From Escherichia phage vB_EcoS-26175I: a DNA stretch of 64,000 bases. Both the position numbers and the translations under genes were made by a program. Every line of letters begins with the position of its first letter. Position 1 is the stretch's first letter. The stretch lies in the sequence record NC_133255.1, one strand, 5' to 3'. The notes beneath the pieces are model-generated. The model saw only the letters and a list, made by a program, of their open reading frames with translations. It made no database searches and had not been told where the DNA came from. Of this stretch, positions 305 to 15,042 are shown one piece after another.

Positions 305-1057
305 TTATCCAACTAGTGGTTCTAGCTCTAAGTCACAGAAGTGGTACACATCGGTACGAAGTGCATCAAGTCCATTGAAGGTATTCTCAAATTTATGAGA
401 AATGTATTTTTCAGGAATACCGCTTTCAGACGGATGATCTGTCTCGATGCGATACTTATTAGTAATACCAGATTCAACCTTAATAAGTATGGAATCCATA
501 TCTAGAGTATTGGTTTCCATGATTAGCTCTCCCTCATTGGGAAAACGCACATCGGTAACGATTGCGACGTCTGGGTCGTCTTTATCGATGGATTGCTCCA
601 GAATTATGAGCCAAATGCGTTCATGCACCAGCTGCCTTCCTAACTCAGTACCTACAAGCTGTAGCATTTTTCTTGGGGAGATAAATACGCTATACAGCGC
701 ATCATCAGCTTGCCCAATTAACTGCTGAGGATCAAGGTATTTTCCTTCAAAAATCGGCCAAACGTACGAGAAGTCCTCAAACTTATCGATACCATACTTA
801 AACCATACGTCTCTAGCTCGCTCCAATTGAGATTGTGTGACCGTAAACCATTGGTCAATCTCTTTTCCCCTGCGCTCTCCCAGAAACTCTGGAGTTACCC
901 CGAGGATTACGGATGCAAGTTCGTAAACGGGTTTAGCAAAACTGTAACGACGAGATAAACACGTTGGGAACGTGTCATTACACCAATCAATCATTAATTC
1001 TGCAACGGTATCTTTTCCCGCACCAGCCTCACCATGTAAACCGACTAATACTGACAT
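305..1057 (-). CDS. deoxynucleoside monophosphate kinase-like P-loop kinase
   Basis: 250 aa ORF; N-terminal P-loop GLHGEAGAGKDT. Confidence 0.5.
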   Translation of the reverse strand: MSVLVGLHGEAGAGKDTVAELMIDWCNDTFPTCLSRRYSFAKPVYELASVILGVTPEFLGERRGKEIDQWFTVTQSQLERARDVWFKYGIDKFEDFSYVWPIFEGKYLDPQQLIGQADDALYSVFISPRKMLQLVGTELGRQLVHERIWLIILEQSIDKDDPDVAIVTDVRFPNEGELIMETNTLDMDSILIKVESGITNKYRIETDHPSESGIPEKYISHKFENTFNGLDALRTDVYHFCDLELEPLVG

Positions 1058-1410
1058 TAATCTTTCCTATTTGTAATGGGTGGATAATAAACTAAGCAAC
1101 GTTTTTCTTGTAAATCTTGACGATAGAAGCAAACCATACCGGTCAGTCGTGAAATGTAAGAGTAAACTGCTTCCTCGCATTTTGCTTTTGCATTCCAATC
1201 TTTGTAAGGTACAACAACTACTACGCCATCTTCACCATTTGTAGCTAATTTCTTTTCGAATTTGAAATCAAAGCTACACGGCTGAAGTCCTTTAGGCCAA
1301 TCTATATGAGCTTGCTTTAACTCATGGGATGGCTCCGGTTTTATTTCTTCTGCACAGCCTGTGATTGTGATTGCGGCTGCGAGCAGTACTCCAAGTTTCC
1401 AGTTAAACAC
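1057..1410 (-). CDS. lipoprotein (possible outer-membrane spanin component)
   Basis: signal peptide with lipobox ITGC; overlaps upstream membrane/coiled-coil ORF. Confidence 0.45.
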   Translation of the reverse strand: MFNWKLGVLLAAAITITGCAEEIKPEPSHELKQAHIDWPKGLQPCSFDFKFEKKLATNGEDGVVVVVPYKDWNAKAKCEEAVYSYISRLTGMVCFYRQDLQEKRCLVYYPPITNRKD

Positions 1411-1790
1411 GCTAATCTTTCCTCGAACTCTTTATTCTGCTTTTTAGCAATTAATGTTACCAATCCAGGCTTTGCAGCGATAACATCTTGACGACTAAGA
1501 GCTTTATCTAACTGCTTAATCTTTTTGTCTAGATCTGCTTGCGAAATATTATTCATTGTGAAATACTGGTTCATTCGAGTCTCACGAAGTTCACTCTCAG
1601 TTTTCACTTTATTAAGAGAAGTCTCTAGAGTGGAGATCTTTTTAGTCGCAACTGCAAGATCACCTGCTAGAGTCTCAACCTTATTAACTAAGTGATAAGC
1701 ACCGAACCCGATGCCTATCGCTAGACCTGCTCCCAGGATATACCACTTACCTTGCCATATTCCTGAAAGAAGTTTTTGTATCAAATCCAT
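1341..1790 (-). CDS. N-terminal TM plus coiled-coil protein (possible inner-membrane spanin)
   Basis: hydrophobic segment WYILGAGLAIGIGFGAY followed by heptad-like charged region; 3' end overlaps lipoprotein ORF. Confidence 0.4.
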   Translation of the reverse strand: MDLIQKLLSGIWQGKWYILGAGLAIGIGFGAYHLVNKVETLAGDLAVATKKISTLETSLNKVKTESELRETRMNQYFTMNNISQADLDKKIKQLDKALSRQDVIAAKPGLVTLIAKKQNKEFEERLACLTGNLEYCSQPQSQSQAVQKK

Positions 1791-2445
1791 GTGCTGCTAA
1801 CCTGTCTTTATCTGATACGGTAATCATATCAGGCTCACCAGTTCCTAGTACACCGAAGATATACTGTTCGAGAACTTGGTGTAAACGGTATAAGTTACTT
1901 TCAATTTCCTGCCACGGAATACCTGACTGGTGGAAACGAATGTTTGTCTGAATTACGAAGTTACGAACATCATCGTTATCGTTCTTCTTAATACCTTTCA
2001 CATATGCAATTGGTACGCGCAGTTCAGATAAGATACGTTCTGCTTTAGGTTTTGCTTCAACCAACATATCTCGCATGGTTTCACGAACATCACCACGATT
2101 CTTGTCTAGTAAGTAAGAACGGGCATGTAATCCCATTTCTTCCATTTTATCAAATACAGCATCGATGTTGAACGTTTTGAAACTGAATGCCGGATGCCAG
2201 CAGGACAGCTCATGTAACCAGTAAACTTCACCTGCAATAAACAGCGGATTTACTGAGTATTCGAAATCACCACGGAAGGATAAGGAACCTTCACGAAACA
2301 CCTGACGATTATGAACAATATTCTTTTCTACATCGTCGGTTACTTTTACTAGCAGCTCTTCAGTTTTACGCTCCCAGACACGATCTGGATCAAATAAACT
2401 ATTCTGCAAATCGTATACATCATTGAACTTTGAAATGATTCTCAT
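1747..2445 (-). CDS. hypothetical protein
   Basis: 232 aa ORF; SD AAGGA upstream; promoter at 2477-2505. Confidence 0.4.
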   Translation of the reverse strand: MRIISKFNDVYDLQNSLFDPDRVWERKTEELLVKVTDDVEKNIVHNRQVFREGSLSFRGDFEYSVNPLFIAGEVYWLHELSCWHPAFSFKTFNIDAVFDKMEEMGLHARSYLLDKNRGDVRETMRDMLVEAKPKAERILSELRVPIAYVKGIKKNDNDDVRNFVIQTNIRFHQSGIPWQEIESNLYRLHQVLEQYIFGVLGTGEPDMITVSDKDRLAAHGFDTKTSFRNMAR

Positions 2446-2505: not shown

Positions 2506-2526
2506 CTGAAATTTTATTACAAAAAT

Positions 2527-2556
2527 AGCCCAGTCGCAAAATTGCAGGCTGGGCTT
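2527..2556 (-). terminator. hairpin terminator
   Basis: inverted repeat agcccag...ctgggct with T-rich tract on minus strand. Confidence 0.45.
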
Positions 2557-2590: not shown

Positions 2591-2980
2591 TCACTCTTGT
2601 TTACTTAATTCTCTAGCACGACGTAGCGATCCAGCGGTTCTCCATAGTTTAATGTCGTCAACAACTTCTTTGTAGGGAGCAATAGTAAGACCTAGCGGCC
2701 CCGCTACCAACAGTCCAAAGAAACCAATTACACGCATGTAAAGCAAGCATTCTTTGGGAGTCATTGACTGGACAGCCTGTCTTTCCTCAGCACTGTCGAA
2801 CTCGTGTTCTTGATCGTCTAAACGTAGGTACTTAATAAACCATTCAGCAGAATATTCATCCAGATGACGAATAACTGCAATAGCATAGCCTAAACCAATA
2901 ATAAACCATGCTGCTACAATGAATAAAATAAAGCTCATGATATCTCCAGTTAAAGTTGAGGTCAGCGACCAACTCACCAC
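2591..2980 (-). CDS. small membrane protein
   Basis: two predicted TM segments; hairpin terminator downstream at 2527-2556. Confidence 0.4.
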   Translation of the reverse strand: MVSWSLTSTLTGDIMSFILFIVAAWFIIGLGYAIAVIRHLDEYSAEWFIKYLRLDDQEHEFDSAEERQAVQSMTPKECLLYMRVIGFFGLLVAGPLGLTIAPYKEVVDDIKLWRTAGSLRRARELSKQE

Positions 2981-3054: not shown

Positions 3055-3339
3055 TTACTTGCTCTGCATTTCAGCACGGAACTTTTTCATCTTACGAGTT
3101 TTACGGAAGAAGAAATAAGTAGCTACTGGCCCGAACAAGGTGTCCATAATAAGCATACCTGACATAATGAATTTGAACATCTTTTCATCGTCAAATTCTG
3201 CTAATTCTGGCGGACGATATTTGTTTATAACATAAAGAATAACATCTTTATTTTTAGAGATATACAGATCATCAATCAGACTGTAAATCGCGACAACTGC
3301 ACCAATAACAAACCACAAAGCAAATGGAGAGATAATCAT
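3055..3339 (-). CDS. small membrane protein
   Basis: 94 aa ORF with hydrophobic segments. Confidence 0.35.
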   Translation of the reverse strand: MIISPFALWFVIGAVVAIYSLIDDLYISKNKDVILYVINKYRPPELAEFDDEKMFKFIMSGMLIMDTLFGPVATYFFFRKTRKMKKFRAEMQSK

Positions 3340-3629
3340 TTAAGATCCTTTTCGTCAATTAGAATAGTAACAAACAATGGTATACAACCTGGGCACAAAT
3401 ATTTACCAAACTTTTCCATCACATCCCAAAGTGGTAAAGTAATCAGACCATTCTTAACTCTAGGATCTGTATACTCAGCTATTCGTTTATTTGCAAAATC
3501 AGTAGCTAAATCTGAGTTATGCTCGTAGCTATAATCAGTCCAGAATTTAACATGATCCTTTCTAAGATATTCTAGTACAGCATCAGTTGCTGGAATCTGT
3601 ACTAGACTGTTGAGATTTAGCTCTTTCAC
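3336..3629 (-). CDS. hypothetical protein
   Basis: 97 aa ORF, start/stop overlap with neighbours. Confidence 0.35.
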   Translation of the reverse strand: MKELNLNSLVQIPATDAVLEYLRKDHVKFWTDYSYEHNSDLATDFANKRIAEYTDPRVKNGLITLPLWDVMEKFGKYLCPGCIPLFVTILIDEKDLK

Positions 3630-4080
3630 GTTCTTCTCTCCGACGTTTGCGTTCTTTCATCATGTAAGCTGCTACAACTTCATGGTAGTAGTCGTTAATG
3701 TTACCTTCAGGTAAGAAATGCTTAATCGTTTCTAGCTGGCAGACAACACGGTAAAGATGTTTATTTGGTAAACATAATTTCATGCCCATAACAAATCCAG
3801 AGAAGCCTGGAACACTGAACATGGGTTGGGCTTCTACGTTGCCCTCTGGGTTGATACTAAGTTCAATCGAGATGCCCATTTTCATGCTATAAAGCTGACA
3901 GCCTTCACCATTGCCAAATCTTGACCAAACAGTGAAGTCCTCATCTATCTGATCTTGGATTTCTTCGACTGCATGTTTAATTCTAGGGTCTAAATTACTC
4001 ATCTTCACCTTCAAAGCCGCAGTCATAACGGCAAGTAAAAGAATCAGAACTATTAGTACGTTGAGTAGTGATTTCACCAC
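3583..4080 (-). CDS. hypothetical protein
   Basis: 165 aa ORF. Confidence 0.35.
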   Translation of the reverse strand: MVKSLLNVLIVLILLLAVMTAALKVKMSNLDPRIKHAVEEIQDQIDEDFTVWSRFGNGEGCQLYSMKMGISIELSINPEGNVEAQPMFSVPGFSGFVMGMKLCLPNKHLYRVVCQLETIKHFLPEGNINDYYHEVVAAYMMKERKRRREERERAKSQQSSTDSSN

Positions 4081-4294
4081 GTTTACTAACAGTAATAGCC
4101 GGAGTAGAGAAGTTTTTATTAGTATAGATTTCTACTTTGCCATTACGTTCTTTAACATCACGTACTTTACCATATTCGGTGGTAATGCCGTTCTGCTGAA
4201 CTTTAACATTACCATTTTTCATAGAAACTTTGGTAGATGCCAGAGAACCGAAACTAACTGCTGAGATTACTAGAGCAATAATAAACTTATTCAT
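3995..4294 (-). CDS. secreted protein (signal peptide)
   Basis: internal Met start MNKFIIALVISAVSFGSLAS looks like a signal peptide; longer ORF extends to 4360. Confidence 0.35.
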   Translation of the reverse strand: MNKFIIALVISAVSFGSLASTKVSMKNGNVKVQQNGITTEYGKVRDVKERNGKVEIYTNKNFSTPAITVSKRGEITTQRTNSSDSFTCRYDCGFEGEDE

Positions 4295-4568
4295 CTTCAT
4301 CGTCCTCTTCACAGTCACGGCATACATCATAATCATTGAAAGAATGTTCGTGAGCTTCACACCACCAAGAACAAGAATCGCACAAGAAAATTTCTGTTTT
4401 CTCTATTGCCTGTCCAAGCAGTTCGTCTGCTTCATCTTCGGTGATTTTCAAACTACAAACATCAGCAACACGTTTAACAATCATTTTACCTGCTTCATGA
4501 TAAGACATACAAGTCCCAACAACATCATGCTCAAGTACGTGAACAGCACAGTCTAGGCGAGTTTTCAT
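4287..4568 (-). CDS. Cys-rich acidic small protein
   Basis: 93 aa; SD GAGAGG and early promoter at 4599-4627 immediately upstream. Confidence 0.4.
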   Translation of the reverse strand: MKTRLDCAVHVLEHDVVGTCMSYHEAGKMIVKRVADVCSLKITEDEADELLGQAIEKTEIFLCDSCSWWCEAHEHSFNDYDVCRDCEEDDEDE

Positions 4569-6462: not shown

Positions 6463-6538
6463 TGGTAGTTAGTAGTGGATTTGAACCACTGTAGTCGCCC
6501 CGTATGAAGGAGGTGCATAACCACTCTGCCAACTAACT
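6463..6538 (-). tRNA. tRNA-Met/Ile2 (anticodon CAT)
   Basis: minus-strand cloverleaf: T-arm agtgg-atttgaa-ccact, 7-bp acceptor, anticodon loop ttCATac; TGG (CCA rc) encoded. Confidence 0.55.
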
Positions 6539-6544
6539 ATAATT

Positions 6545-6620
6545 TGGTACTCCGAGTTGGAATCGAACCAACGTTTGACGATTATCGGTCGCCCGTTCTA
6601 ACCTATTGAACTATCAGAGC
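6545..6620 (-). tRNA. tRNA-Ile (anticodon GAT), loop ccGATaa with C33
   Basis: T-arm gttgg-aatcgaa-ccaac, acceptor pairs with GU, D-arm gttc/gaac; anticodon loop has C at position 33. Confidence 0.55.
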
Positions 6621-6621
6621 A

Positions 6622-6888
6622 TTAATACGGGTACTTGGCTCTTTTCACTGCTCTTTCAAATTCTCTAATATGTTCTCTAGAGAGTGCAGATAAATCAAAG
6701 GCACAAGATACTAAACGTTCTTTCTTGAAGAATCCTAAATAAAAGGAGGCTGTTATACATTGCGTAGGTCTAGCAAAGATCTTGTAAACTCCGGATTTAG
6801 GGATTCCCATACCCTTTTGATAATTACTGCCATTTGTAGGCCCAGCCATTAAGTTTTTGGGTACTAAGTCAAAACGTATTTTAATCAT
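6622..6888 (-). CDS. hypothetical protein
   Basis: 88 aa ORF. Confidence 0.3.
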   Translation of the reverse strand: MIKIRFDLVPKNLMAGPTNGSNYQKGMGIPKSGVYKIFARPTQCITASFYLGFFKKERLVSCAFDLSALSREHIREFERAVKRAKYPY

Positions 6889-7178
6889 CGCATAATATCC
6901 AAATAAGATTCATAACGATAGTCTGTTAGGCCTTCCTCCGTCACCGTAACCTTCACTGGAGGTACCCGACGAACTAAACCATGAATCATCTTGTACTGAA
7001 TAGACTTAGATGGTTCGTGATCTTTTGGAAATACTTGTTTAACCGTTACTACTTTGAAGCCTTCACGAGGTGTTAGCACAACAACTTGATCACCTTCTTT
7101 TATTTTCCAAGACTCAGGAAATTCGTAAGTATAGCGTTGACCACCAGTTTGGAACACGACAGAAAGATAACGTTTCAT
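6885..7178 (-). CDS. hypothetical protein
   Basis: 97 aa ORF; promoter 7208-7236 upstream. Confidence 0.35.
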   Translation of the reverse strand: MKRYLSVVFQTGGQRYTYEFPESWKIKEGDQVVVLTPREGFKVVTVKQVFPKDHEPSKSIQYKMIHGLVRRVPPVKVTVTEEGLTDYRYESYLDIMR

Positions 7179-7207
7179 TTGGTTTCCCTCTCATTAATTT
7201 ATATAAA

Positions 7208-7236
7208 TATTATAACAAGAAATAAGAGAGAAGGCA
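7208..7236 (-). promoter_or_regulatory. sigma70-type early promoter
   Basis: same conserved element (caatttatataaatattata...gcaa). Confidence 0.55.
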
Positions 7237-7255
7237 AATGAATTTTTTAAATTTG

Positions 7256-7327
7256 ATGCTCCCACCAGGAATCGAACCCAGTTCAGATGCTTACAAGGCA
7301 ACTGCATCGCCAGCAATGCTTTAGGAG
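7256..7327 (-). tRNA. tRNA-Thr (anticodon TGT)
   Basis: T-arm with aatcgaa loop, acceptor gctccca/taggagc, anticodon loop ctTGTaa; no encoded CCA. Confidence 0.55.
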
Positions 7328-7494
7328 CATTAACCCGTTATTTCAACGGGATTTCTTTTTCATATACAGGAGACTTATCAGACATTACTGTCCTAGCCAA
7401 CTGCTGTAGAAATTCGAAGGAGAGTTTTAAACGTTCTTCACCCAACTCAACCTCAACGCACTTCATTTGTTTATCAACCTTTAGCTTTAGATTA

Positions 7495-7716
7495 TCAGCC
7501 ATCTTCGGATTCTCTTTGCTCAGCTATTGCTAGCCAGTTTGGTAAAAGAAACTTCGTACGAAATTCTTCATATGTTTCTTCTGGATGAAAGCTATAACCT
7601 TGCTTTTCATCATTTAATAAAACCGAACCGTCTTCCTGTTCATAAGCTCGGTATGTTTCACCAATAATTAAAACTCGTCTATTAGGATTTTTATTACGAA
7701 ACTCAAAAACGTGCAT
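7495..7716 (-). CDS. hypothetical protein
   Basis: 73 aa ORF. Confidence 0.3.
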   Translation of the reverse strand: MHVFEFRNKNPNRRVLIIGETYRAYEQEDGSVLLNDEKQGYSFHPEETYEEFRTKFLLPNWLAIAEQRESEDG

Positions 7717-7741
7717 AACGTTTCCTTAAATTGGTGCGGGA

Positions 7742-7816
7742 TACGAGAGTCGAACTCGTGTCTACTGGTTGGAAGCCAGTTATTCTAGCCACTGAACTAA
7801 TCACGCATGAATTGGC
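7742..7816 (-). tRNA. tRNA-Gly (anticodon TCC)
   Basis: T-arm acgag-agtcgaa-ctcgt, anticodon stem actgg/ccagt, loop ctTCCaa. Confidence 0.7.
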
Positions 7817-7822
7817 TGGAGA

Positions 7823-7898
7823 AGGAGGAATCGAACCTACCATTAACGGAGTCAAAGGCCGTTGTGCTAACCGTTACACTACTCTCCAAGTATTTGGC
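7823..7898 (-). tRNA. tRNA-Gln (anticodon TTG)
   Basis: T-arm with aatcgaa loop; anticodon loop ctTTGac. Confidence 0.6.
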
Positions 7899-7904
7899 TG
7901 GGAT

Positions 7905-7980
7905 GCCACGGATCGAACGTGGAACCTTCGGAGTCAGAGGCCGACGATCTGCCAATTGATCTACATCCCAATAATTTTTT
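7905..7980 (-). tRNA. tRNA-Gln (anticodon CTG)
   Basis: T-arm ccacg-gatcgaa-cgtgg, perfect acceptor tgggatg/catccca, loop ctCTGac. Confidence 0.6.
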
Positions 7981-8179
7981 ATTCTACAGGAACCGTGGCG
8001 ATTGGATCAGGTTCTTCTAGACGTTTACCATTATGATCAACACGAATAATACCACAACCCTCACAGATTACAACAGCACCATAGCCTTCTTTAACTTCGG
8101 CTTCTGTAATCAGCCCAGAAAGATCACCAGTATCTTTTCCCCACATATCAATGGAACATTCTTTGCAGAAATCAGCCAT
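7979..8179 (-). CDS. Cys-rich small protein (zinc-ribbon-like)
   Basis: 66 aa with CxxC...CxxC. Confidence 0.3.
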   Translation of the reverse strand: MADFCKECSIDMWGKDTGDLSGLITEAEVKEGYGAVVICEGCGIIRVDHNGKRLEEPDPIATVPVE

Positions 8180-8203
8180 ATTTTATTTCCCGTTTAAGTT
8201 AGT

Positions 8204-8278
8204 TGGTGCATCCTCAGGGAATCGAACCCCGATCGTAAAGTTCGTAGCTTTACATTCTTTCCATTGAAATAAGGACGC
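8204..8278 (-). tRNA. tRNA-Arg (anticodon ACG)
   Basis: T-arm with aatcgaa loop; anticodon stem taaag/cttta, loop ctACGaa. Confidence 0.7.
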
Positions 8279-8284
8279 AATATT

Positions 8285-8361
8285 TGGGGTGACTAGTGGA
8301 ATTCGAATCCACATAGGCCTGATTCACAATCAGGATCATTAACCAATTATGATATAGCCAC
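8285..8361 (-). tRNA. tRNA-His (anticodon GTG)
   Basis: T-arm gtgga-attcgaa-tccac; anticodon stem cctga/tcagg, loop ttGTGaa; 74-nt body consistent with the extra 5' G-1 of tRNA-His. Confidence 0.75.
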
Positions 8362-8676
8362 AATTGAAATCTCTAGTTATCCCTTTCGTAGGGGCTAAAG
8401 GGCGATACCCATCCTAAAGACTTCAATTGTGGCGGCTCTCCGAAACTCATCACACTAACAACTAGTTGATTACTTCTGGATTCTCGCCCAGAAAATTCTC
8501 TAGAAAGGTGCACCGTTACTCTTTGAGCCATTGAATATCAAGAAGTAGAAGGACTCGAACCTTCACGAGATAGACCATTTATCTCAGCCTCGTTTTCGGG
8601 TATCTTATGAGGAGTGGATGTTCCCCTTACGCCCTTTAGGAAGCCCCGTCTACCGATTCCGGCATACTTCAAGATT

Positions 8677-8766
8677 TGGCAGAAGATAATGGAGTCGAAC
8701 CATCACCGTATCACTACAGCGGGCCGGTTTTCAAGACCGGTTACGTACCACTACGTCCTATCTTCT
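8677..8766 (-). tRNA. tRNA-Ser (anticodon TGA), long variable arm
   Basis: 87-nt body; acceptor agaagat/atcttct; anticodon stem ccggt/accgg, loop ctTGAaa. Confidence 0.7.
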
Positions 8767-9121
8767 ATTGTTCGTATATTACAAAGTTTACAGATTCAGA
8801 GTAATAACCATTACTAGAACCATGCCATTTAACGGTTACACAGCCTTTAGCTGTGGCAAACTTATACCATGTATGGGTTACTGAATCCCAATCTTCTGTA
8901 GCGTGTGTGATTACTTCCTCTGCTTCTATGATTGGATAACCTAAAAGGTCATGTAAATCACCAATAATATCATCTATATGAACATCTTCACAGCAGTCCT
9001 GCTCATGATAAAACTTATAGTTCTTACCATCAGTACAAATGAAGATAAGAGTATCTTGGTCTTGGCATACATTAGTAAAAATTTTGCCAAGCATTTCATT
9101 ATAGATTGTCACTTCTGACAT
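8765..9121 (-). CDS. hypothetical protein
   Basis: 118 aa ORF. Confidence 0.35.
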   Translation of the reverse strand: MSEVTIYNEMLGKIFTNVCQDQDTLIFICTDGKNYKFYHEQDCCEDVHIDDIIGDLHDLLGYPIIEAEEVITHATEDWDSVTHTWYKFATAKGCVTVKWHGSSNGYYSESVNFVIYEQ

Positions 9122-9143
9122 ATTAGTTTCCTAGTAAGTTGTT

Positions 9144-9233
9144 TGGCGGAAGAAGAGAGATTCGAACTCTCAAGCCGTTTTACCAGTCAGCCACTTTCCA
9201 AGCGGTTTTCGTCACCTATCGATTTGCTCTTCC
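9144..9233 (-). tRNA. tRNA-Ser (anticodon GGA), long variable arm
   Basis: 87-nt body, T-arm gagag-attcgaa-ctctc; anticodon loop ttGGAaa. Confidence 0.5.
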
Positions 9234-9407
9234 GTAGATCTCAGGATTAAATCATAAACTTCATTAGCGGATACTGGAAGTATGAGATTATACATCTTTT
9301 GGTCATACCTCTGACCATACTCTATAAACACATACTCTTTAGTTAATGTATTAACAGCTAACCAGATATCAGTTATAGGAGTTTTCATCATGAGTTAATC
9401 CAATGTT

Positions 9408-9488
9408 TGGTAGGGATGGAGGGACTCGAACCCACACCCGAAGACTAGAACCTAAATCTAGCGCGTCTGCCAATTTCGCCACATCCCC
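9408..9488 (-). tRNA. tRNA-Leu (anticodon TAG), short variable region
   Basis: 78-nt body; anticodon stem ctaga/tctag perfect, loop ttTAGgt. Confidence 0.5.
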
Positions 9489-9495
9489 ATTTTAT

Positions 9496-9714
9496 TTAGT
9501 TAGAAATAAATAATAATCCCGCAACAATAGAACCTACGCCACTGAATACCATTATCAGCATAGCTTCTAAGCTGATAAAGCGGACAGTATATGGAGCGCC
9601 CCAAGAATAATCAGTAAAGAAAGTTTTCTTTTCTTTAGCTAAATCTTTAATAGTTCTAAAATAGATAGCTAGTGCTAAAGCTGCAAGAACTACAGAGGCT
9701 GCTAAGAATACCAT
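9496..9714 (-). CDS. small membrane protein
   Basis: 72 aa, two hydrophobic segments. Confidence 0.3.
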   Translation of the reverse strand: MVFLAASVVLAALALAIYFRTIKDLAKEKKTFFTDYSWGAPYTVRFISLEAMLIMVFSGVGSIVAGLLFISN

Positions 9715-9733
9715 ATTATTTCCTTAATTTGTT

Positions 9734-9809
9734 TGGTGGAGTCACTCAGAATTGAACTGAGTTCCACTGCTTGCAAGGCAGTAAGTTTAACCAAATAACC
9801 TATGACCCC
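9734..9809 (-). tRNA. tRNA-Ala (anticodon TGC)
   Basis: T-arm ctcag-aattgaa-ctgag; anticodon stem actgc/gcagt, loop ctTGCaa. Confidence 0.7.
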
Positions 9810-9814
9810 GAATT

Positions 9815-9893
9815 TGGTGGAGAATAAGAGATTCGAACTCTTCTGATATCCTCGGTGCAAGCGAGGTGTCCACTCCAAGCAGACCCATTCCCC
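9815..9893 (-). tRNA. second tRNA with anticodon TGC (Ala-like), 7-nt variable loop
   Basis: T-arm aagag-attcgaa-ctctt; anticodon stem cctcg/cgagg perfect, loop ctTGCac; atypical positions 8-9. Confidence 0.45.
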
Positions 9894-9902
9894 AAAATTT
9901 AT

Positions 9903-10166
9903 TTATTCTCTATACATATCGAGAACAGTTGCTACAATCTGAGCTTCTAGCCTAGCAATATCTTTATTCACTATATCAGATTCTACTACTAAGTGATTAT
10001 ATATTGCTTCAGTTTTAGCAAGATCTATATCAGATAGTTTATTAAGACTATTATAATACTTAGCATTATTGCAACGTTTCTTCATATCGGAAACTCGTTT
10101 ATGGAGGGTTCTTTGTTGATAACGTTGCGACATTAGTTTCTTAGCCATATCTTTAAGATCAAACAT
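9903..10166 (-). CDS. hypothetical protein
   Basis: 87 aa ORF. Confidence 0.3.
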   Translation of the reverse strand: MFDLKDMAKKLMSQRYQQRTLHKRVSDMKKRCNNAKYYNSLNKLSDIDLAKTEAIYNHLVVESDIVNKDIARLEAQIVATVLDMYRE

Positions 10167-10431
10167 AGATATTCCTTCTAGTTTACTAAGGCTATTAGCT
10201 CGGTGTGCGTATTACCCTCAGACATTAGCCAGTAGAGGATAACCGCTCTTCACAAACCCGATACACTATTCAGTTGCCGCTGAATCTAGTGGACTAATCT
10301 AGAACTTATTGCAAAGTATCCCCTGCCATTAGGGGTCTAATTGCAATTGTGCTTTTTGGCAGCCAGTCCTAGGTCGAGCTAATACCTTAGTGAACTTTGA
10401 TGAGGATTTCTCCTCATCAATTTATATAAAT

Positions 10432-10460
10432 ATTATAACAAGAAATTAAGCATCAAGCAA
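10432..10460 (-). promoter_or_regulatory. sigma70-type early promoter (TTGCTT-17-TATAAT)
   Basis: conserved element; followed leftwards by ~260 nt without annotated ORF. Confidence 0.55.
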
Positions 10461-10812
10461 GTACATTTTTAGCGATTTCTTGTAGTTCCTTAACGTCGCT
10501 AACGAAAAGGTAATCAGAGCTTCCAGAGTGCATACTCTGCATAACCACACCATCCTCTGGTGCATCTTCCTTCAAAGTAAGTCCTAACCAGAACTTGGCA
10601 AAACCAGGTGTTACCTCACCTTGACTTGCCTTGAACACATCGCCTTCTGTGATCTCTTGACCAGTAGAGAGTCCCATGTATGGTACGTTCAGATCAATAT
10701 CTTTGTAGAACTCAGCTAGATCTTGCTCGAAATCCCAACCTTTAGAGATAGCGAACTCCATTGTTACATGACCGAAATAGCCTTGAACCTTGCTTGATAA
10801 TTGCATTTGCAA
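10453..10812 (-). CDS. hypothetical protein
   Basis: 119 aa ORF. Confidence 0.35.
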   Translation of the reverse strand: MQMQLSSKVQGYFGHVTMEFAISKGWDFEQDLAEFYKDIDLNVPYMGLSTGQEITEGDVFKASQGEVTPGFAKFWLGLTLKEDAPEDGVVMQSMHSGSSDYLFVSDVKELQEIAKNVLA

Positions 10813-10831
10813 TTCCTTATTTTGAGTTAAT

Positions 10832-10905
10832 TGGTACTCGGTGATAGAATCGAACTATCGCAACCGCCGTGTAAAGACGGGGTTCTCCCATTAAACTAAC
10901 CGAGT
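10832..10905 (-). tRNA. tRNA-Val (anticodon TAC)
   Basis: perfect acceptor actcggt/accgagt, T-arm gatag-aatcgaa-ctatc, loop ttTACac. Confidence 0.7.
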
Positions 10906-10909
10906 AATT

Positions 10910-10987
10910 TGGTGGATTGCCTGGGATTCGAACCCAGAACTGACGGATTAAAGGTCCGCTACTCTTATCCAGTTGAGCTAGCAATCC
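10910..10987 (-). tRNA. tRNA-Lys (anticodon TTT), loop ccTTTaa with C33
   Basis: perfect acceptor and T-arm (ctggg-attcgaa-cccag); anticodon loop has C at position 33. Confidence 0.55.
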
Positions 10988-11451
10988 AATTTTTCTACTA
11001 ATAATTTAAAAGCATCTAGTACAGGTACTTCAAACCATTCTCCAGATACTCTATAATCTTTAAGAAGATTATGTAATTCTTTCTCTGTACGTCTTTTATC
11101 AGACGAAAATCTGAAATGGTATAGCTTGTAGTCTCTATTAGGTGAATAAGTTTGATAACTTGCTAACCTCTCATTCACATCTATAGTCATACCTATTTTA
11201 TACATGCCTGGCCATGCTGGATTACCAATTACATATACAAAACCTTCCGTTATAGGTATTTTATGCTCCCTTTTATACTTTAAGAGATTTAAGGCTGCCA
11301 TTCGATAACAGAATCTAAACTCTGAAGTTTTTAACTTACCTTCTTTACCCGAAATTTCGTTATATTTGCTCATATAAGCTCTTATGAGCTTATCATCTAT
11401 AATGAAGTTATCAGGAAGGTTTAAGGCAGCTAAAACTTTATTAATTAGCAT
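10978..11451 (-). CDS. T5orf172-type (GIY-YIG-like) domain protein
   Basis: motif GFVYVIGNPAWPGMYKIGMT...R...Y typical of the T5orf172/MUG113 GIY-YIG-like fold. Confidence 0.5.
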   Translation of the reverse strand: MLINKVLAALNLPDNFIIDDKLIRAYMSKYNEISGKEGKLKTSEFRFCYRMAALNLLKYKREHKIPITEGFVYVIGNPAWPGMYKIGMTIDVNERLASYQTYSPNRDYKLYHFRFSSDKRRTEKELHNLLKDYRVSGEWFEVPVLDAFKLLVEKLDC

Positions 11452-11626
11452 AGACTTCCTTAATAGAATAAACTTTTAAGTAAGGGTGATTAATACCAAA
11501 TTCCGCCATCACTTCGTTTTCATCTTTACCGTAATGGGCTAGTGGATACTTCTTACGATCTTTGCTAGAACGTAGATCACTTACTTTTAAACGAAATAAT
11601 TTCATTTCGAAATCCTTCTATTAAAT

Positions 11627-11704
11627 TGGAAGCGGGTGCAGGAATCGAACCTACCTCTTTCTAGCTTATGAGACTAGCGATCTCTACCAGAGATCTAACC
11701 CGCA
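11627..11704 (-). tRNA. tRNA-Met (anticodon CAT)
   Basis: T-arm with aatcgaa loop; anticodon loop ctCATaa; 1-72 pair mismatched. Confidence 0.6.
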
Positions 11705-11710
11705 ATTGTT

Positions 11711-11788
11711 TGGTCTCCGTGGGAGGATTTGAACCCCCGACCCTACCGCCCCAAACGGAACGCTCTGGCCAAACTGAGCTACACGGAG
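11711..11788 (-). tRNA. tRNA-Pro (anticodon TGG)
   Basis: perfect acceptor ctccgtg/cacggag; loop ttTGGgg. Confidence 0.6.
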
Positions 11789-12100
11789 AATATTCTTTGT
11801 TAACTCACTTTATAAAATATATTATACAGATATTTAAGCATAATAGCAAATGAGTTTTTAATAAATTTACTTATTGCGTAGGCCACCTCACGCTTCAAAC
11901 GCTCTGCTGACAAAGAAGTTTGCGAGACTTCTCTTAAATGCCAGAATAGACCCGCCGATCTATCGGAACCTACTCAATAAGTAAACTTTCGTTTACCTAC
12001 ACCTACCTGGTCGGGAGGATTTTCAGCGACTAGAACCGGCCGGAAACTCATCGCCTTGTTTATCTAGGAGTCCGTTCTCTAGGAAGCAGAAACCTAAATT

Positions 12101-12174
12101 TGGTGCGGTCGGAGGGAATCGAACCCTCAACTTCTGGTTGGCAACCAAAAATTATACCTTTTAACTACGAACGC
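12101..12174 (-). tRNA. tRNA-Gly (anticodon GCC)
   Basis: T-arm gaggg-aatcgaa-ccctc; loop ttGCCaa. Confidence 0.6.
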
Positions 12175-12312
12175 ATAATAAGTCAATCTAGGCAGGACTT
12201 GAACCTGCTATCACTTGTGCGGATTTACGAGAACCATTCTTTCACTCGAATCGAACGAGCTTCTACCCTCGGCAAGCTGGTGTCCCCTCTCCACCACGCT
12301 AGAATGTTTAAT

Positions 12313-12390
12313 TGGTACACCTGCTGAGATTCAAACTCAGGATCTTCCGATTAAGAGTCGGTTGCTTTAAGTCAACTAAGCTACAGATGC
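12313..12390 (-). tRNA. tRNA-Lys (anticodon CTT)
   Basis: T-arm ctgag-attcaaa-ctcag; D-arm gctt/aagc; loop ctCTTaa. Confidence 0.55.
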
Positions 12391-12930
12391 ATTTATATCT
12401 TTATAGGACTTACCAGCCAGTCTTGTATAGCGTTTTCGCAAACCATTATCTGACATGCCCAATTCTCTAGAAGCTCTAGACCATGAGTAATTTTTAACCC
12501 AGTACTCTATTTGTTCTACAGTAATTTCTTGTGGATTTTGACAGTGCTGTTTGCAGTAACTAGCTCTTTTAGCTATTTCTTTGTTGCAAATAGGACAGAA
12601 ATTTTTATCTGAACTTAATCCACGTTCTTCTATAGTTTTGAGAATATGATCAGCTTTACTTCGTACAATCAGATTTTCAAGAGAGAAATTTAGTTTATTT
12701 GTATCATCATGATCTACTTCTAAGTCAGAACTCAAAGATGGTAGATCTTTGTATACTCTCGCTAATACTCTGTGTAATAGAAGATGTTTTGATTTTCCAT
12801 TATGTTGAACAGTAAAGAAAGGATACCCAGAAGTATTAATCTGTATTGAAAGTATACGATTAACTTTAGTACTAAATACTTCCCCAGTCTCACTTATTAA
12901 GTATTCTGGATATTCGGGTATTTCTTTCAT
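12376..12930 (-). CDS. free-standing HNH homing endonuclease
   Basis: 184 aa; HNH-type motif LLLHRVLA...EVDHDDTNKLNFSLENL; embedded in tRNA array. Confidence 0.6.
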   Translation of the reverse strand: MKEIPEYPEYLISETGEVFSTKVNRILSIQINTSGYPFFTVQHNGKSKHLLLHRVLARVYKDLPSLSSDLEVDHDDTNKLNFSLENLIVRSKADHILKTIEERGLSSDKNFCPICNKEIAKRASYCKQHCQNPQEITVEQIEYWVKNYSWSRASRELGMSDNGLRKRYTRLAGKSYKDINASVA

Positions 12931-12947
12931 TACTGTTCCTTATAATT

Positions 12948-13024
12948 TGGCGCGACCGATGGGATTCGAACCCACATTCTCTCCCGTGACAGGGGAGTAC
13001 CATTACCAAGCCAGCCCCGATCGC
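12948..13024 (-). tRNA. tRNA-Asp (anticodon GTC)
   Basis: T-arm atggg-attcgaa-cccac; anticodon stem ctccc/gggag perfect, loop ctGTCac. Confidence 0.8.
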
Positions 13025-13033
13025 ATAATTTGT

Positions 13034-13219
13034 TTACTCAGCTTTGAGTTTTTCGATAGCTTCCTCAACCTCTTTTAGAGCTTCACGACGCTCTACTTGA
13101 CCTTGAAGTTCTTCAAGAAGTTCAGCTTTCAGAGCCTTAATAATATTACCACGAACCTTAATATTATTAATCAGATTATCACGATCAGCTTCTAGTCGAG
13201 CAATTGCACGAGTTGTCAT
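13034..13219 (-). CDS. hypothetical coiled-coil small protein
   Basis: 61 aa ORF. Confidence 0.3.
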   Translation of the reverse strand: MTTRAIARLEADRDNLINNIKVRGNIIKALKAELLEELQGQVERREALKEVEEAIEKLKAE

Positions 13220-13246
13220 ATCTATTTCCTCAGTTGTTAGTGAAAT

Positions 13247-13332
13247 TGGCGGGCCGTGTAGGAGTTGAACCTACTTTATCCTTGCGGATACGGATTAACA
13301 GTCCGGCGCTTAAACCGTTCAGCCAACGGCCC
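13247..13332 (-). tRNA. tRNA-Asn (anticodon GTT) with unusually long variable arm
   Basis: 83-nt body, perfect acceptor gggccgt/acggccc, T-arm gtagg-agttgaa-cctac; loop ctGTTaa; variable hairpin atcc-ttgc-ggat. Confidence 0.5.
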
Positions 13333-13339
13333 TAAAATT

Positions 13340-13415
13340 TGGACGACCGCATGAGATTCGAACTCACATAAGGAGGTTTTGCAGGCCTCCGCCTAAGCCA
13401 TTCAGCCAACGGTCG
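13340..13415 (-). tRNA. tRNA-Cys (anticodon GCA)
   Basis: T-arm atgag-attcgaa-ctcac; anticodon stem ggagg/cctcc; loop ctGCAaa. Confidence 0.65.
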
Positions 13416-13593
13416 ATTTATCTTGTTTTTCGAGATTAGTAAATTCTAAGTCTTTGGAATGCCCTATAGATCTAGCATAATAACCATCTCCAGCATCGTA
13501 GCCTGATTTACCACACTCACACATCTTAAACTCCCGATAACGAGTGAATATATGCTCAGAACCACAACACTTAAATTTAACTAACATTTTCAT
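13402..13593 (-). CDS. hypothetical Cys-containing small protein
   Basis: 63 aa ORF. Confidence 0.3.
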   Translation of the reverse strand: MKMLVKFKCCGSEHIFTRYREFKMCECGKSGYDAGDGYYARSIGHSKDLEFTNLEKQDKSTVG

Positions 13594-13832
13594 GAAACAC
13601 GCTCCGGTAGATCTTCTAATTTATACTCAGTAGCTACATTAGTAGCGTCTAGTAATAAACCCATATGTTTAAGGATTTTAGTAATAGATTCGCCTTCAGC
13701 TTCTTCTACAAAAGTGCGTAGTTGAATGAAGTCAATACCACCATCCATACCAGAGAAAATGTTTAGTAAGCGAAGCATTACCAGCTTACGTTCTTTTAAT
13801 TCTTGTTCTGTCATGTTGCTTCTCCAGTTCAA
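13590..13832 (-). CDS. hypothetical protein
   Basis: 80 aa ORF; promoter 13844-13872 upstream. Confidence 0.3.
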   Translation of the reverse strand: MNWRSNMTEQELKERKLVMLRLLNIFSGMDGGIDFIQLRTFVEEAEGESITKILKHMGLLLDATNVATEYKLEDLPERVS

Positions 13833-13843
13833 TTTATGTAATA

Positions 13844-13872
13844 ATTATACAGAACTTTAAGGATTTAAGCAA
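13844..13872 (-). promoter_or_regulatory. sigma70-type early promoter
   Basis: attata 13844-13849, aagcaa 13867-13872. Confidence 0.5.
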
Positions 13873-14152
13873 CTACATTTTTCAGAAATTTGATGCCTTT
13901 CTTTTTCTTCTTATATTTCCACGTTAACGGGTTCTGTCGATTATGAACGCTTGAGATCTTTGTCTCGTCAAAGTTCTTCAATACCATGTAATCACATGCC
14001 AACTGCTCTAGTGGAATGGTTTCTCCATCAAAAGCATAAACATAAGGCTGTTGACTAGCACGATAATGATAGACTTTGTTAATTCTACATTTCAGCGACT
14101 TATCCGCGCAGTAAATAAAGAAGTTTTCAGGATGCATCAGCATCTCCTTCAA
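13865..14152 (-). CDS. hypothetical protein
   Basis: 95 aa ORF. Confidence 0.3.
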   Translation of the reverse strand: MKEMLMHPENFFIYCADKSLKCRINKVYHYRASQQPYVYAFDGETIPLEQLACDYMVLKNFDETKISSVHNRQNPLTWKYKKKKKGIKFLKNVVA

Positions 14153-14154
14153 AT

Positions 14155-14229
14155 TGGTGCACCCTGTTCGTATCGAACGAACCTCTCAAGCTCTTCAGGC
14201 AAGCGCTAATCCATCTCAGCTAAAGGTGC
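14155..14229 (-). tRNA. tRNA-Phe (anticodon GAA), weak anticodon stem
   Basis: T-arm gttcg-tatcgaa-cgaac; standard register gives loop ctGAAga; anticodon stem has two U-U mismatches. Confidence 0.5.
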
Positions 14230-14235
14230 AAATAT

Positions 14236-14312
14236 TGGCAAACCTACTAGGACTCGAACCTAGACCGTACGGTTTTGGAGACCGACATGCTGTCCAGTAA
14301 CACTCTAGGAAT
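14236..14312 (-). tRNA. tRNA-Trp (anticodon CCA)
   Basis: T-arm ctagg-actcgaa-cctag; loop ctCCAaa; acceptor has mismatches. Confidence 0.5.
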
Positions 14313-14320
14313 GCAGAAAT

Positions 14321-14397
14321 TGGCGTCCTGTGCGGGGATCGAACCCGCAAATCCTACCTTGAAAGGGTAGTGACTTTACCAGTTTGTCTAACAGGAC
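14321..14397 (-). tRNA. tRNA-Glu (anticodon TTC)
   Basis: perfect acceptor gtcctgt/acaggac, T-arm gcggg-gatcgaa-cccgc, anticodon stem ctacc/ggtag; loop ctTTCaa. Confidence 0.75.
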
Positions 14398-14404
14398 TTA
14401 AATT

Positions 14405-14486
14405 TGGTGGGGGATGGAGGACTCGAACCTCCGCGTGGTATACCCGGTCTACAGCCAGGCGCCGTCGCCACTGAGCCAATCCCCCC
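14405..14486 (-). tRNA. tRNA-Tyr (anticodon GTA)
   Basis: 79-nt body, perfect acceptor gggggat/atccccc, T-arm ggagg-actcgaa-cctcc; loop ctGTAga. Confidence 0.65.
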
Positions 14487-14952: not shown

Positions 14953-14982
14953 TCGTTAACTCCTTCATCAATTTATATAACT

Positions 14983-15012: not shown

Positions 15013-15042
15013 GTACATTTTTAAAAATTCTGTTTGGAGGAG

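What the first reader, a model, noticed from the sequence alone, without database searches (positions are those of the whole stretch)
1057..1790. Overlapping membrane coiled-coil ORF and lipoprotein ORF resemble a spanin pair
An N-terminal-TM, coiled-coil protein (1341-1790) overlaps by ~70 nt a lipoprotein with lipobox ITGC (1057-1410). That is the architecture of inner- and outer-membrane spanins, which would place a lysis function in this early-region cassette.
Basis: inference. Interest (0 to 1): 0.4.

Follow-up and report, generated by a model that had tools for sequence, protein, structure and literature searches.

The report
Known T5-family overlapping spanin gene pair
These two overlapping genes are the already catalogued inner- and outer-membrane spanin pair of T5-like phages, which most likely breaks the host outer membrane in the last step of lysis, so the finding is correct but ordinary.

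Summary
On the minus strand, a 149-aa ORF (1341-1790) has an N-terminal membrane helix and a heptad-repeat helical domain. It overlaps by 70 nt a 117-aa ORF (1057-1410) with a lipoprotein signal, lipobox ITGC and Cys19. The window is a T5-like Epseptimavirus, 100% identical to Escherichia phage vB_EcoS-26175II.

The pair is already described. The SpaninDataBase (Kongari et al. 2018) lists the phage EPS7 pair as an overlapped "T5 family" spanin. The EPS7 i-spanin is identical to the window protein and the o-spanin differs by one residue. The T5 reference annotates the orthologues T5.045/T5.044 as Rz-like spanins similar to T4 PseT.3/PseT.2.

Both window proteins match the same PHROG families as T4 PseT.3/PseT.2, a pair shown to complement a lambda Rz/Rz1 defect. 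The two cysteines essential in T4 PseT.2 are conserved here as C94 and C105.

All 32 related viral loci keep both ORFs, the lipobox and the cysteines. Codon-position diversity shows purifying selection in both frames.

Holin and endolysin genes lie just beyond the window's left edge in relatives. I found no direct experiment on the T5-family pair.

Verdict: interpretation supported, already known, low interest.

The parts
1341..1790 (-). i-spanin gene (149 aa), orthologue of T5.045 and identical to the EPS7 i-spanin
   Evidence: ORF. phrog_739 'Rz-like spanin' E = 3e-38. Identical sequence in the SpaninDB EPS7 entry. T5.045 is annotated as an Rz-like spanin.
1686..1745 (-). N-terminal transmembrane segment of the i-spanin (about residues 16-35)
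   Evidence: Hydropathy maximum of 1.55 at residues 17-35. A hydrophobic segment aligns at this position in all the T5-like and T4-like homologues. SpaninDB gives 35 residues for the N-terminus plus TMD and a periplasmic domain of 114 aa.
1566..1694 (-). Coiled-coil-prone helix of the i-spanin periplasmic domain (residues 33-75)
   Evidence: Heptad test on residues 36-63: 8 of 8 a/d positions hydrophobic, reached by 1 of 1000 shuffles. SpaninDB table: EPS7 i-spanin coiled coil at 33-75. The profile matches only coiled-coil PDB chains such as Lpp, sigma-1 and HA2.
1458..1472 (-). KPGLV motif of the i-spanin (residues 107-111), the only positions invariant between T5-like and T4-like i-spanins
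   Evidence: K107, P108 and L110 are invariant in alignment A2. The motif also aligns in BLASTP against T4 PseT.3.
1383..1409 (-). i-spanin Cys128 and Cys136, a C-terminal periplasmic cysteine pair that lies in the overlap
   Evidence: Present in all 32 related loci and in all Demerecviridae sequences of A2, but absent from T4-like PseT.3.
1341..1410 (-). 70-nt out-of-frame overlap of the i-spanin 3' end and the o-spanin 5' end
   Evidence: The same 70-nt overlap is seen in 25 of 28 close relatives. Nucleotide diversity is 0.048, against 0.093 and 0.097 in the flanking single-coding parts.
1057..1410 (-). o-spanin gene (117 aa precursor, 99 aa mature), orthologue of T5.044
   Evidence: ORF. 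phrog_812 'Rz-like spanin' E = 7e-30. The SpaninDB EPS7 o-spanin differs by one residue, I36V. All homologues carry Pfam PF26831.
1354..1410 (-). Lipoprotein signal peptide, with lipobox ITGC at 1354-1365 and the lipidated Cys19
   Evidence: Regular-expression and composition check. G18 and C19 are invariant from T5-like to T4 o-spanins, and the +2 residue is never Asp.
1096..1137 (-). Conserved C-terminal o-spanin motif MVCFYRQDLQEKRC, containing Cys94 and Cys105
   Evidence: C94, Y96, E102 and C105 are invariant in 48 sequences. They align with T4 PseT.2 C87 and C98, both of which are essential for lysis (PMC6139136).
1177..1278 (-). Segment bounded by Cys45 and Cys78, an extra cysteine pair specific to Demerecviridae o-spanins
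   Evidence: Present in all 32 loci and absent from T4-like PseT.2.
1418..1424 (-). Ribosome-binding site GAGGAAA, 7 nt upstream of the o-spanin GTG and inside the i-spanin gene
   Evidence: Sequence. SpaninDB marks the same site for EPS7.
1800..1803 (-). Weak ribosome-binding site AGGT, 9 nt upstream of the i-spanin ATG and inside the upstream 232-aa ORF
   Evidence: Sequence. A SpaninDB curator noted that this is not a strong SD.
2511..2539 (-). Candidate sigma-70-like promoter upstream of the 232-aa ORF, possibly the start of the operon that contains the spanins
   Evidence: Consensus match of 9/12, not above the shuffle expectation. It lies at the position where the T5 record annotates a promoter upstream of T5.047. 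Weak evidence.

Best explanation
The two genes encode the two-component spanin of a T5-like phage (Epseptimavirus).

Proposed mechanism:
- The 149-aa i-spanin is anchored in the inner membrane by its N-terminal helix, and its helical, coiled-coil-prone domain extends into the periplasm.
- The 117-aa o-spanin is processed by signal peptidase II and lipidated on Cys19. Because it lacks Asp at +2, the Lol pathway sorts it to the inner leaflet of the outer membrane.
- The two subunits bind through their periplasmic domains, so the complex spans the periplasm through the peptidoglycan mesh.
- After the T-type holin and the L-alanyl-D-glutamate peptidase endolysin (encoded about 1.4-2.5 kb downstream) destroy the wall, the complexes are free to move and change conformation. 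They then fuse or disrupt the outer membrane and release the progeny.
- Disulfide bonds formed by the conserved cysteines (o-spanin C94/C105, as in T4 PseT.2; plus o-spanin C45/C78 and i-spanin C128/C136, which are specific to the T5 group) probably stabilise the active complex.

Shown here: gene structure, sorting signals, conservation, selection in both reading frames, homology to T4 PseT.3/PseT.2, and synteny with holin and endolysin.

Inferred: membrane topology, complex formation, disulfide pattern and the lytic role itself.
For: - ORFs, overlap and signals.
- PHROG 739/812 'Rz-like spanin' at E = 3e-38 and 7e-30. T4 PseT.3/PseT.2 fall in the same two PHROGs at E = 1e-37 and 5e-42.
- BLASTP against T4: o-spanin 29% identity, E = 2e-7; i-spanin 29% identity, E = 3e-6. 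Matches to other T4-like pairs are stronger.
- tblastn hits in T4-like genomes fall on the pseT.2 locus.
- T4 pseT.3/pseT.2 complement lambda RzamRz1am, and PseT.2 C87 and C98 are essential (PMC6139136). These cysteines are invariant in 48 homologues, including the window protein.
- SpaninDB lists the EPS7 pair as 'ovl', T5 family, 70-bp overlap, with an i-spanin identical to the window protein.
- T5.044/T5.045 are annotated as Rz-like spanins similar to PseT.2/PseT.3.
- All 32 IMG/VR loci keep both ORFs, the lipobox and the six periplasmic cysteines.
- Codon-position diversity shows purifying selection in each frame and a double constraint in the overlap.
- In three loci and in phage IrisVonRoten, a homing-endonuclease gene separates the two genes and both remain intact, so they are independent genes.
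- The order i-spanin, o-spanin, dnk, ClpP-like, holin, endolysin is conserved in five Demerecviridae genera.
Against: - I found no experiment on any T5-family pair in the literature searched. Function rests on homology at 22-33% identity to the T4-like pairs.
- The spanin genes are not in the holin-endolysin transcription unit. They lie in the unit with dNMP kinase and a ClpP-like protease, according to the T5 promoter and terminator annotation.
- The mature o-spanin is long (99 aa) and has four periplasmic cysteines. The SpaninDB curators flagged this themselves ('Too long?', '4 Cys?').
- The hydropathy of the i-spanin membrane segment (1.55) is just under the classical 1.6 cut-off.
- AlphaFold2 monomer models of both proteins have low confidence (pLDDT 51 and 44), so they give no structural support.
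Confidence: 0.9

Rival explanations
1. The pair forms a periplasm-spanning or periplasmic complex with a non-lytic role, such as regulating lysis timing (antiholin-like), remodelling the envelope or excluding superinfecting phage. On this reading the spanin label is only an annotation carried over by homology.
For: - No direct experiment on the T5 family was found.
- The genes are co-transcribed with dnk and a ClpP-like protease rather than with holin and endolysin.
- The o-spanin is unusually long and cysteine-rich.
Against: - Both subunits are homologous to T4 PseT.3/PseT.2, which functionally replace lambda Rz/Rz1.
- The cysteines essential in T4 are conserved.
- T4's own spanin genes are also located away from its holin and endolysin genes.
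- The pair is the only candidate with spanin sorting signals next to the lysis genes in these phages.
Confidence: 0.06
2. The lipoprotein is a receptor-blocking lytic-conversion lipoprotein of the Llp/Cor type, and the upstream membrane protein is unrelated to it.
For: T5-like phages do encode a small lipoprotein, Llp, that blocks the receptor. The 117-aa protein has a lipoprotein signal.
Against: - BLASTP between T5 Llp and the window lipoprotein gives no alignment at E <= 100.
- Llp belongs to phrog_1119 (Cor superinfection exclusion protein), not phrog_812.
- In T5, llp lies next to the receptor-binding protein gene oad at about 110 kb, not at this locus.
- The lipoprotein is always paired with the i-spanin gene.
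Confidence: 0.02
3. The overlapping 117-aa ORF is a chance open frame and is not expressed. The source record with 100% identity does not annotate it.
For: MK907268 and several other records lack a CDS here. The start codon is GTG.
Against: - The ORF, the lipobox and all cysteines are kept in 32 of 32 loci, down to 37% protein identity.
- The third-codon-position excess in its own frame is 0.195, against 0.056 and 0.041 at positions 1 and 2.
- It has a strong GAGGAAA ribosome-binding site.
- It remains intact when a homing endonuclease separates it from the i-spanin gene.
- Gene callers are known to miss overlapped o-spanin genes (PMC6139136).
Confidence: 0.01

Closest known systems
T5-family two-component spanins (T5.045/T5.044; EPS7 AGC_0048/AGC_0047) as catalogued in the SpaninDataBase, Kongari et al. 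2018 (PMC6139136)
   Same: The i-spanin is identical to EPS7 and the o-spanin differs by one residue, I36V. The window pair also shares the overlapped architecture with a 70-bp overlap, the lipobox TITG|C, the 99-aa mature o-spanin with 4 periplasmic cysteines, the 2 cysteines in the i-spanin, and the position upstream of dnk.
   Different: Nothing of substance. The o-spanin start codon is GTG here, while most relatives use ATG.
[quoted passage not shown]
   Same: Both pairs fall in the same PHROG families 739 and 812, and the same Pfam family PF26831 covers T5-like and T4-like o-spanins. The KPGLV motif in the i-spanin is conserved. So are the HxxWP motif and the C-terminal CxYRxxLxExxC motif in the o-spanin, including the two cysteines essential for T4 lysis. 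In both phages the spanin genes sit outside the holin-endolysin unit.
   Different: Identity to the T4-like pairs is only 20-33%. The T4 genes are 'separated' (a 4-nt overlap) while these overlap by 70 nt. The T5-type subunits carry an extra cysteine pair each (o-spanin C45/C78; i-spanin C128/C136) and longer C-terminal tails. T4 has been tested experimentally; the T5 type has not.
Phage lambda Rz/Rz1 (prototype spanin)
   Same: The logic is the same: a type II inner-membrane protein with a coiled-coil periplasmic domain, plus an outer-membrane lipoprotein encoded in a different frame of overlapping DNA. Periplasmic cysteines are present. The role is in the last step of lysis (PMC6139136).
   Different: No sequence similarity was detected; neither Pfam nor NCBIfam gave an Rz or Rz1 hit. 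In lambda, Rz1 is fully embedded in Rz and is short (40 aa mature), proline-rich and unstructured. Here the o-spanin gene is only partly overlapped and encodes a 99-aa mature protein with predicted strand and helix elements (low confidence; SpaninDB secondary-structure table).

Membership tests
Two-component spanin (SpaninDB criteria, Kongari et al. 2018) | i-spanin: small protein with a single N-terminal transmembrane domain and a C-terminal periplasmic domain | tested here: met
   Hydropathy peak of 1.55 at residues 17-35 and none elsewhere. A hydrophobic segment aligns at this position in the homologues. The hydropathy is marginally below the classical 1.6 cut-off. No dedicated TM predictor was available.
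Two-component spanin (SpaninDB criteria, Kongari et al. 2018) | o-spanin: signal peptidase II signal with a lipobox and Cys, and no inner-membrane retention signal (Asp at +2) | tested here: met
   The signal reads MFNWK, LGVLLAAA, ITG|C, with Ala at +2. G and C are invariant, and +2 is A, S or N in the 9 diverse homologues. LipoP and SignalP were not available.
Two-component spanin (SpaninDB criteria, Kongari et al. 2018) | The o-spanin gene is embedded in, overlaps, or lies immediately downstream of the i-spanin gene | tested here: met
   70-nt overlap in a different reading frame. The overlap is 34-88 nt in distant relatives, and the genes are separated only where a homing endonuclease has inserted.
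Two-component spanin (SpaninDB criteria, Kongari et al. 2018) | Periplasmic cysteines available for intermolecular disulfide bonds | tested here: met
   The i-spanin has C128 and C136. The o-spanin has C45, C78, C94 and C105. All are conserved in 32 of 32 loci. Whether the bonds actually form was not testable.
Two-component spanin (SpaninDB criteria, Kongari et al. 2018) | Location in or near the lysis cassette of a phage with a Gram-negative host | tested here: met
   Holin and endolysin lie 1.4-2.5 kb downstream in the identical record and in Seafire, T5, Spivey and Stubb. They are outside the window itself.
Two-component spanin (SpaninDB criteria, Kongari et al. 2018) | Function: required for outer-membrane disruption, or complements lambda Rz/Rz1 mutants | not testable with these tools
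   Shown for the homologous T4 pair. No experiment on a T5-type pair was found.
T5 i-/o-spanin families (at least 40% identity over at least 40% of length to a member) | Sequence identity to listed members (T5, EPS7, Stitch, SPC35, AKFV33, FFH1, DT57C and others) | tested here: met
   The i-spanin is 100% identical and the o-spanin 116/117 identical to EPS7. Identity to the T5 locus L025 is about 90% for both proteins.
PseT.3/PseT.2 superfamily (PHROG 739/812; Pfam PF26831 for the o-spanin) | Significant profile match, plus conservation of the two C-terminal cysteines essential in T4 PseT.2 | tested here: met
   the same PHROGs; PF26831 on all hits; C94 and C105 align with T4 C87 and C98 and are invariant. 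The local Pfam copy did not report PF26831, so the name of that family could not be read.
Llp/Cor lytic-conversion lipoprotein | Sequence similarity to T5 Llp and a position next to the receptor-binding protein gene | tested here: not met
   No BLASTP alignment at E <= 100. Llp is in a different PHROG, 1119. It lies at a different locus.
Lambda Rz/Rz1 sequence families | Match to the Rz or Rz1 protein families | tested here: not met
   No Rz or Rz1 family appeared among the Pfam or NCBIfam hits. The resemblance is functional and architectural only.

The most novel reading that the evidence does not exclude
T5-type spanins may be a covalently more elaborate derivative of the T4 PseT.3/PseT.2 system. 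Each subunit has gained its own conserved cysteine pair (i-spanin C128/C136, encoded inside the overlap; o-spanin C45/C78). The active complex might therefore need disulfide-linked dimers of both subunits, or even heterotypic i-o bonds, a pattern not found in lambda or T4. A more speculative possibility is that the conserved 232-aa protein encoded immediately upstream, whose gene overlaps the i-spanin start by 44 nt, is a further partner.
Probability: 0.15. Interest if true: 0.3.

Novelty: already known. Interest (0 to 1): 0.07.

Why it matters
It matters little beyond correct annotation. The pair completes the lysis gene set (holin, endolysin, spanin) of this T5-like phage.

Two minor practical points remain:
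- The GenBank record identical to the window, and many related records, do not annotate the overlapped o-spanin gene. This illustrates the known blind spot of gene callers for overlapping genes.
- The T5 family has never been tested experimentally. It would be an easy system for asking how extra disulfide pairs and a larger o-spanin (mature 99 aa, with predicted strand and helix elements) fit the membrane-fusion model.

Tried and rejected
- AlphaFold2 models of both proteins, built from alignments of 48 and 17 sequences, had low confidence (pLDDT 50.8 and 44.4; pTM 0.23 and 0.17). I ran no fold search because the matches would be meaningless. Only the secondary-structure pattern is noted: a strand hairpin plus a helix in the o-spanin, and an almost fully helical i-spanin.
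- Pfam-A and NCBIfam scans gave no significant family for either protein. The precomputed tag PF26831 on all o-spanin homologues could not be resolved to a name.
- A profile search of the PDB gave nothing for the o-spanin. For the i-spanin it gave only compositional coiled-coil matches.
It worked with the Demerecviridae-only alignment.
- The promoter and terminator scan found no more than chance. The one promoter-like site I cite gains weight only from the T5 annotation.
- The Llp/Cor lipoprotein idea was tested and rejected.
- Literature searches found catalogue and annotation papers but no functional study of T5-type spanins.
Full report
**1. What is there**

The window is part of a T5-like phage genome. 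A megablast of 900-2500 gives 100% identity over the full length to Escherichia phage vB_EcoS-26175II to V (Epseptimavirus, Demerecviridae). It gives 98-99% identity to EPS7, Seafire, TrudiRoth and many Salmonella phages, and 445 records match in all.

ORF 1341-1790(-) encodes 149 aa.
- Its only strongly hydrophobic stretch is residues 17-35 (YILGAGLAIGIGFGAYHLV; 19-residue Kyte-Doolittle mean 1.55).
- Heptad periodicity follows at residues 36-63. All eight a/d positions are hydrophobic, a score reached by 1 of 1000 shuffles.
- A profile of the family hits only coiled-coil chains in the PDB, such as Lpp, reovirus sigma-1 and influenza HA2. That reflects composition, not homology.

ORF 1057-1410(-) encodes 117 aa.
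- It starts with GTG, 7 nt after a GAGGAAA ribosome-binding site.
- It begins MFNWK-LGVLLAAA-ITG|C, a textbook signal peptidase II signal with lipobox ITGC and Cys19. The +2 residue is Ala, so there is no inner-membrane retention signal.

The two genes overlap by exactly 70 nt in different reading frames. The o-spanin stop codon overlaps the start of the dNMP kinase gene (TAATG at 1055-1059). The i-spanin start lies 44 nt inside the upstream 232-aa ORF.

**2. Is it real coding sequence?**

Yes. A scan of IMG/VR with a Demerecviridae o-spanin alignment returned 32 loci, with protein identity from 99% down to 37%. In all 32:
- Both ORFs are open.
- The lipobox is present (ITGC, ASGC, LLGC or LVGC).
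- The four periplasmic cysteines of the lipoprotein and the two C-terminal cysteines of the membrane protein are kept.

Of the 28 close relatives, 25 have the same 70-nt overlap. Three have the genes 666 nt apart. Phage IrisVonRoten shows the same arrangement, with a homing-endonuclease gene between intact i- and o-spanin genes. More distant genera overlap by 88 or 34 nt.

Nucleotide diversity by codon position, in 26 distinct sequences:

| Region | Position 1 | Position 2 | Position 3 |
|---|---|---|---|
| i-spanin-only part | 0.075 | 0.034 | 0.170 |
| o-spanin-only part | 0.056 | 0.041 | 0.195 |

The overlap has about half the overall diversity of the flanks (0.048 against 0.093 and 0.097). 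This pattern indicates purifying selection on each protein and a double constraint in the overlap.

**3. What it is**

Both proteins match PHROG families labelled "Rz-like spanin": phrog_739 at E = 3e-38 and phrog_812 at E = 7e-30.

Many relatives annotate the pair as i-spanin/o-spanin, including Seafire, TrudiRoth, Ace and EPS7 RefSeq.

The curated SpaninDataBase of Kongari et al. 2018 (PMC6139136) lists phage EPS7 as an overlapped ("ovl") pair.
- Its i-spanin sequence is identical to the window protein, and its o-spanin differs at one residue.
- The entry gives lipobox TITG|C, a mature length of 99 aa, 4 cysteines and a 70-nt overlap.
- It is placed in the "T5 family" with T5, Stitch, SPC35, AKFV33, FFH1, DT57C, My1, phiR201 and Shivani.
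- The paper also describes the separated variant caused by a homing-endonuclease insertion.

Genome announcements for the T5-like phages Shivani, Sugarland and Sepoy mention the same spanin pair.

The T5 reference record annotates T5.044 and T5.045 as Rz-like spanins, with notes on similarity to T4 PseT.2 and PseT.3.

**4. Link to an experimentally tested system**

A tblastn search with the window lipoprotein also hits T4-like myophages, exactly at the pseT.2 position between alc/pseT.3 and pseT.

Pairwise BLASTP results:

| Comparison | o-spanin | i-spanin |
|---|---|---|
| Window vs T4 PseT.2 / PseT.3 | 29%, E = 2e-7 | 29%, E = 3e-6 |
| Window vs Shigella phage vB_SdyM_006 | 33%, E = 7e-15 | 25%, E = 2e-5 |
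| Window vs Edwardsiella phage PEi26 | 27%, E = 3e-11 | 32%, E = 7e-8 |

- T4 PseT.2 and PseT.3 fall in the same PHROGs, 812 and 739.
- Every o-spanin homologue found, whether T5-like or T4-like, carries the same Pfam tag PF26831.
- Kongari et al. showed that pseT.3/pseT.2 complement a lambda RzamRz1am lysis defect, and that PseT.2 C87 and C98 are both essential. These two cysteines align with the window's C94 and C105.
- In 48 sequences, the invariant positions are C19 of the lipobox, P39, C94, Y96, E102 and C105.
- In the i-spanin, the KPGLV motif (K107, P108, L110) is the only element invariant across both phage groups.
- Demerecviridae add a cysteine pair in each subunit that T4-like phages lack: o-spanin C45/C78 and i-spanin C128/C136.

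**5. Context**

The order is 232-aa protein, i-spanin, o-spanin, dNMP kinase, ClpP-like protease, T-type holin, L-alanyl-D-glutamate peptidase endolysin. It is conserved in Epseptimavirus, Tequintavirus, Sugarlandvirus and Myunavirus, and from the i-spanin onward in Novosibvirus.

The window begins inside the ClpP-like gene, so the holin and endolysin lie just beyond its left edge.

In the T5 record, a promoter is annotated upstream of T5.047 and a terminator after T5.042. The holin-endolysin pair has its own promoter. The spanins are therefore probably transcribed with dnk rather than with the holin. T4 is similar, in that its spanin genes are also remote from t and e.

A weak promoter-like match at 2539-2511(-) lies at the corresponding position in the window. 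The scan as a whole does not exceed chance.

**6. Mechanism**

This part is inferred from the family, not shown here.
- The i-spanin sits in the inner membrane with its N-terminus in and its C-terminus out.
- The o-spanin is lipidated and sorted to the outer membrane.
- The periplasmic domains bind each other through the peptidoglycan mesh.
- Once holin and endolysin remove the wall, the complexes oligomerise, change conformation and fuse or rupture the outer membrane.
- Disulfides through C94/C105 are likely required, as in T4.

**7. Rivals**

- A non-lytic role cannot be formally excluded, because no T5-type pair has been tested. Homology to a complementing pair makes it unlikely.
- The Llp/Cor receptor-blocking lipoprotein idea fails. 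There is no alignment to T5 Llp, Llp is in a different PHROG, and it lies at a different locus.
- A chance ORF is excluded.

**8. What led nowhere**

- The AlphaFold2 monomer models are unreliable (pLDDT 51 and 44), so I made no fold search.
- Pfam-A, NCBIfam and the PDB gave nothing specific.

**9. Verdict**

The feature is already known and catalogued, down to an identical protein sequence. Interest is low.

The only open points are the lack of any experiment on the T5 family and the meaning of its extra cysteine pairs and large o-spanin.

Noticed in passing
window 1057-1410 (-); L002 (MK907268.1): The GenBank record that is 100% identical to the window does not annotate the o-spanin CDS at all and calls the i-spanin 'hypothetical protein'. 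Its holin CDS is also shorter than in Seafire and T5 (429 nt against 657 nt). Many related records likewise miss the overlapped gene.
   Followed up: partly
window 1747-2445 (-): A 232-aa ORF (orthologue of T5.047, phrog_4243, function unknown) has no Pfam, NCBIfam or PDB match. It overlaps the i-spanin start by 44 nt and lies upstream of the i-spanin in T5 (there separated from it by hegF), My1, Spivey, Seafire and IrisVonRoten. One record calls it 'DNA polymerase III subunit epsilon', with no support found here.
   Followed up: partly
window 872-876, inside the dNMP kinase gene 305-1057 (-): A GCGC motif lies at the position that corresponds to the 'major DNA single-chain interruption' (nick site consensus Pu-GCGC) annotated inside dnk in the T5 reference (L043 2816-2817). 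The window phage may carry the same site-specific nick.
   Followed up: no
window 6463-21667 (-): A cluster of 31 tRNA genes lies on the minus strand, typical of T5-like phages. One, at 21594-21667, has anticodon TCA and ARAGORN labels it tRNA-SeC. It may be an opal-reading or otherwise unusual tRNA.
   Followed up: no
window 2591-2980, 3055-3339, 3583-4080, 3995-4360 (all -): A run of small predicted membrane or secreted proteins of unknown function lies upstream of the spanin operon. It includes orthologues of T5.048 and T5.049 (each with 2 TMDs; the T5.049 orthologue is DUF7176 at E = 4e-53) and an ORF with a signal-peptide-like N-terminus (MNKFIIALVISAVSFGSLAS).
   Followed up: no
L010 1598-2296; L034-L036; L043 3725-4222: Homing-endonuclease genes insert repeatedly around the spanin pair. 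One lies between the i- and o-spanin genes in IrisVonRoten, NR01 and Shivani-type phages, which turns the overlapped architecture into a separated one and shortens the i-spanin to 141 aa. Another (hegF) lies upstream of the i-spanin in T5.
   Followed up: partly
L009 2501-2812 (Proteus phage Stubb); L004 1480-1773 (Edwardsiella phage PEi26): The annotated o-spanin/pseT.2 start codons in these records are too far downstream and cut off the signal peptide. Upstream in-frame ATG codons restore MSNWRRGLLSIIVLGLVGC in Stubb and MNLKVAAICLSVLVTGC in PEi26, each with a proper lipobox.
   Followed up: yes
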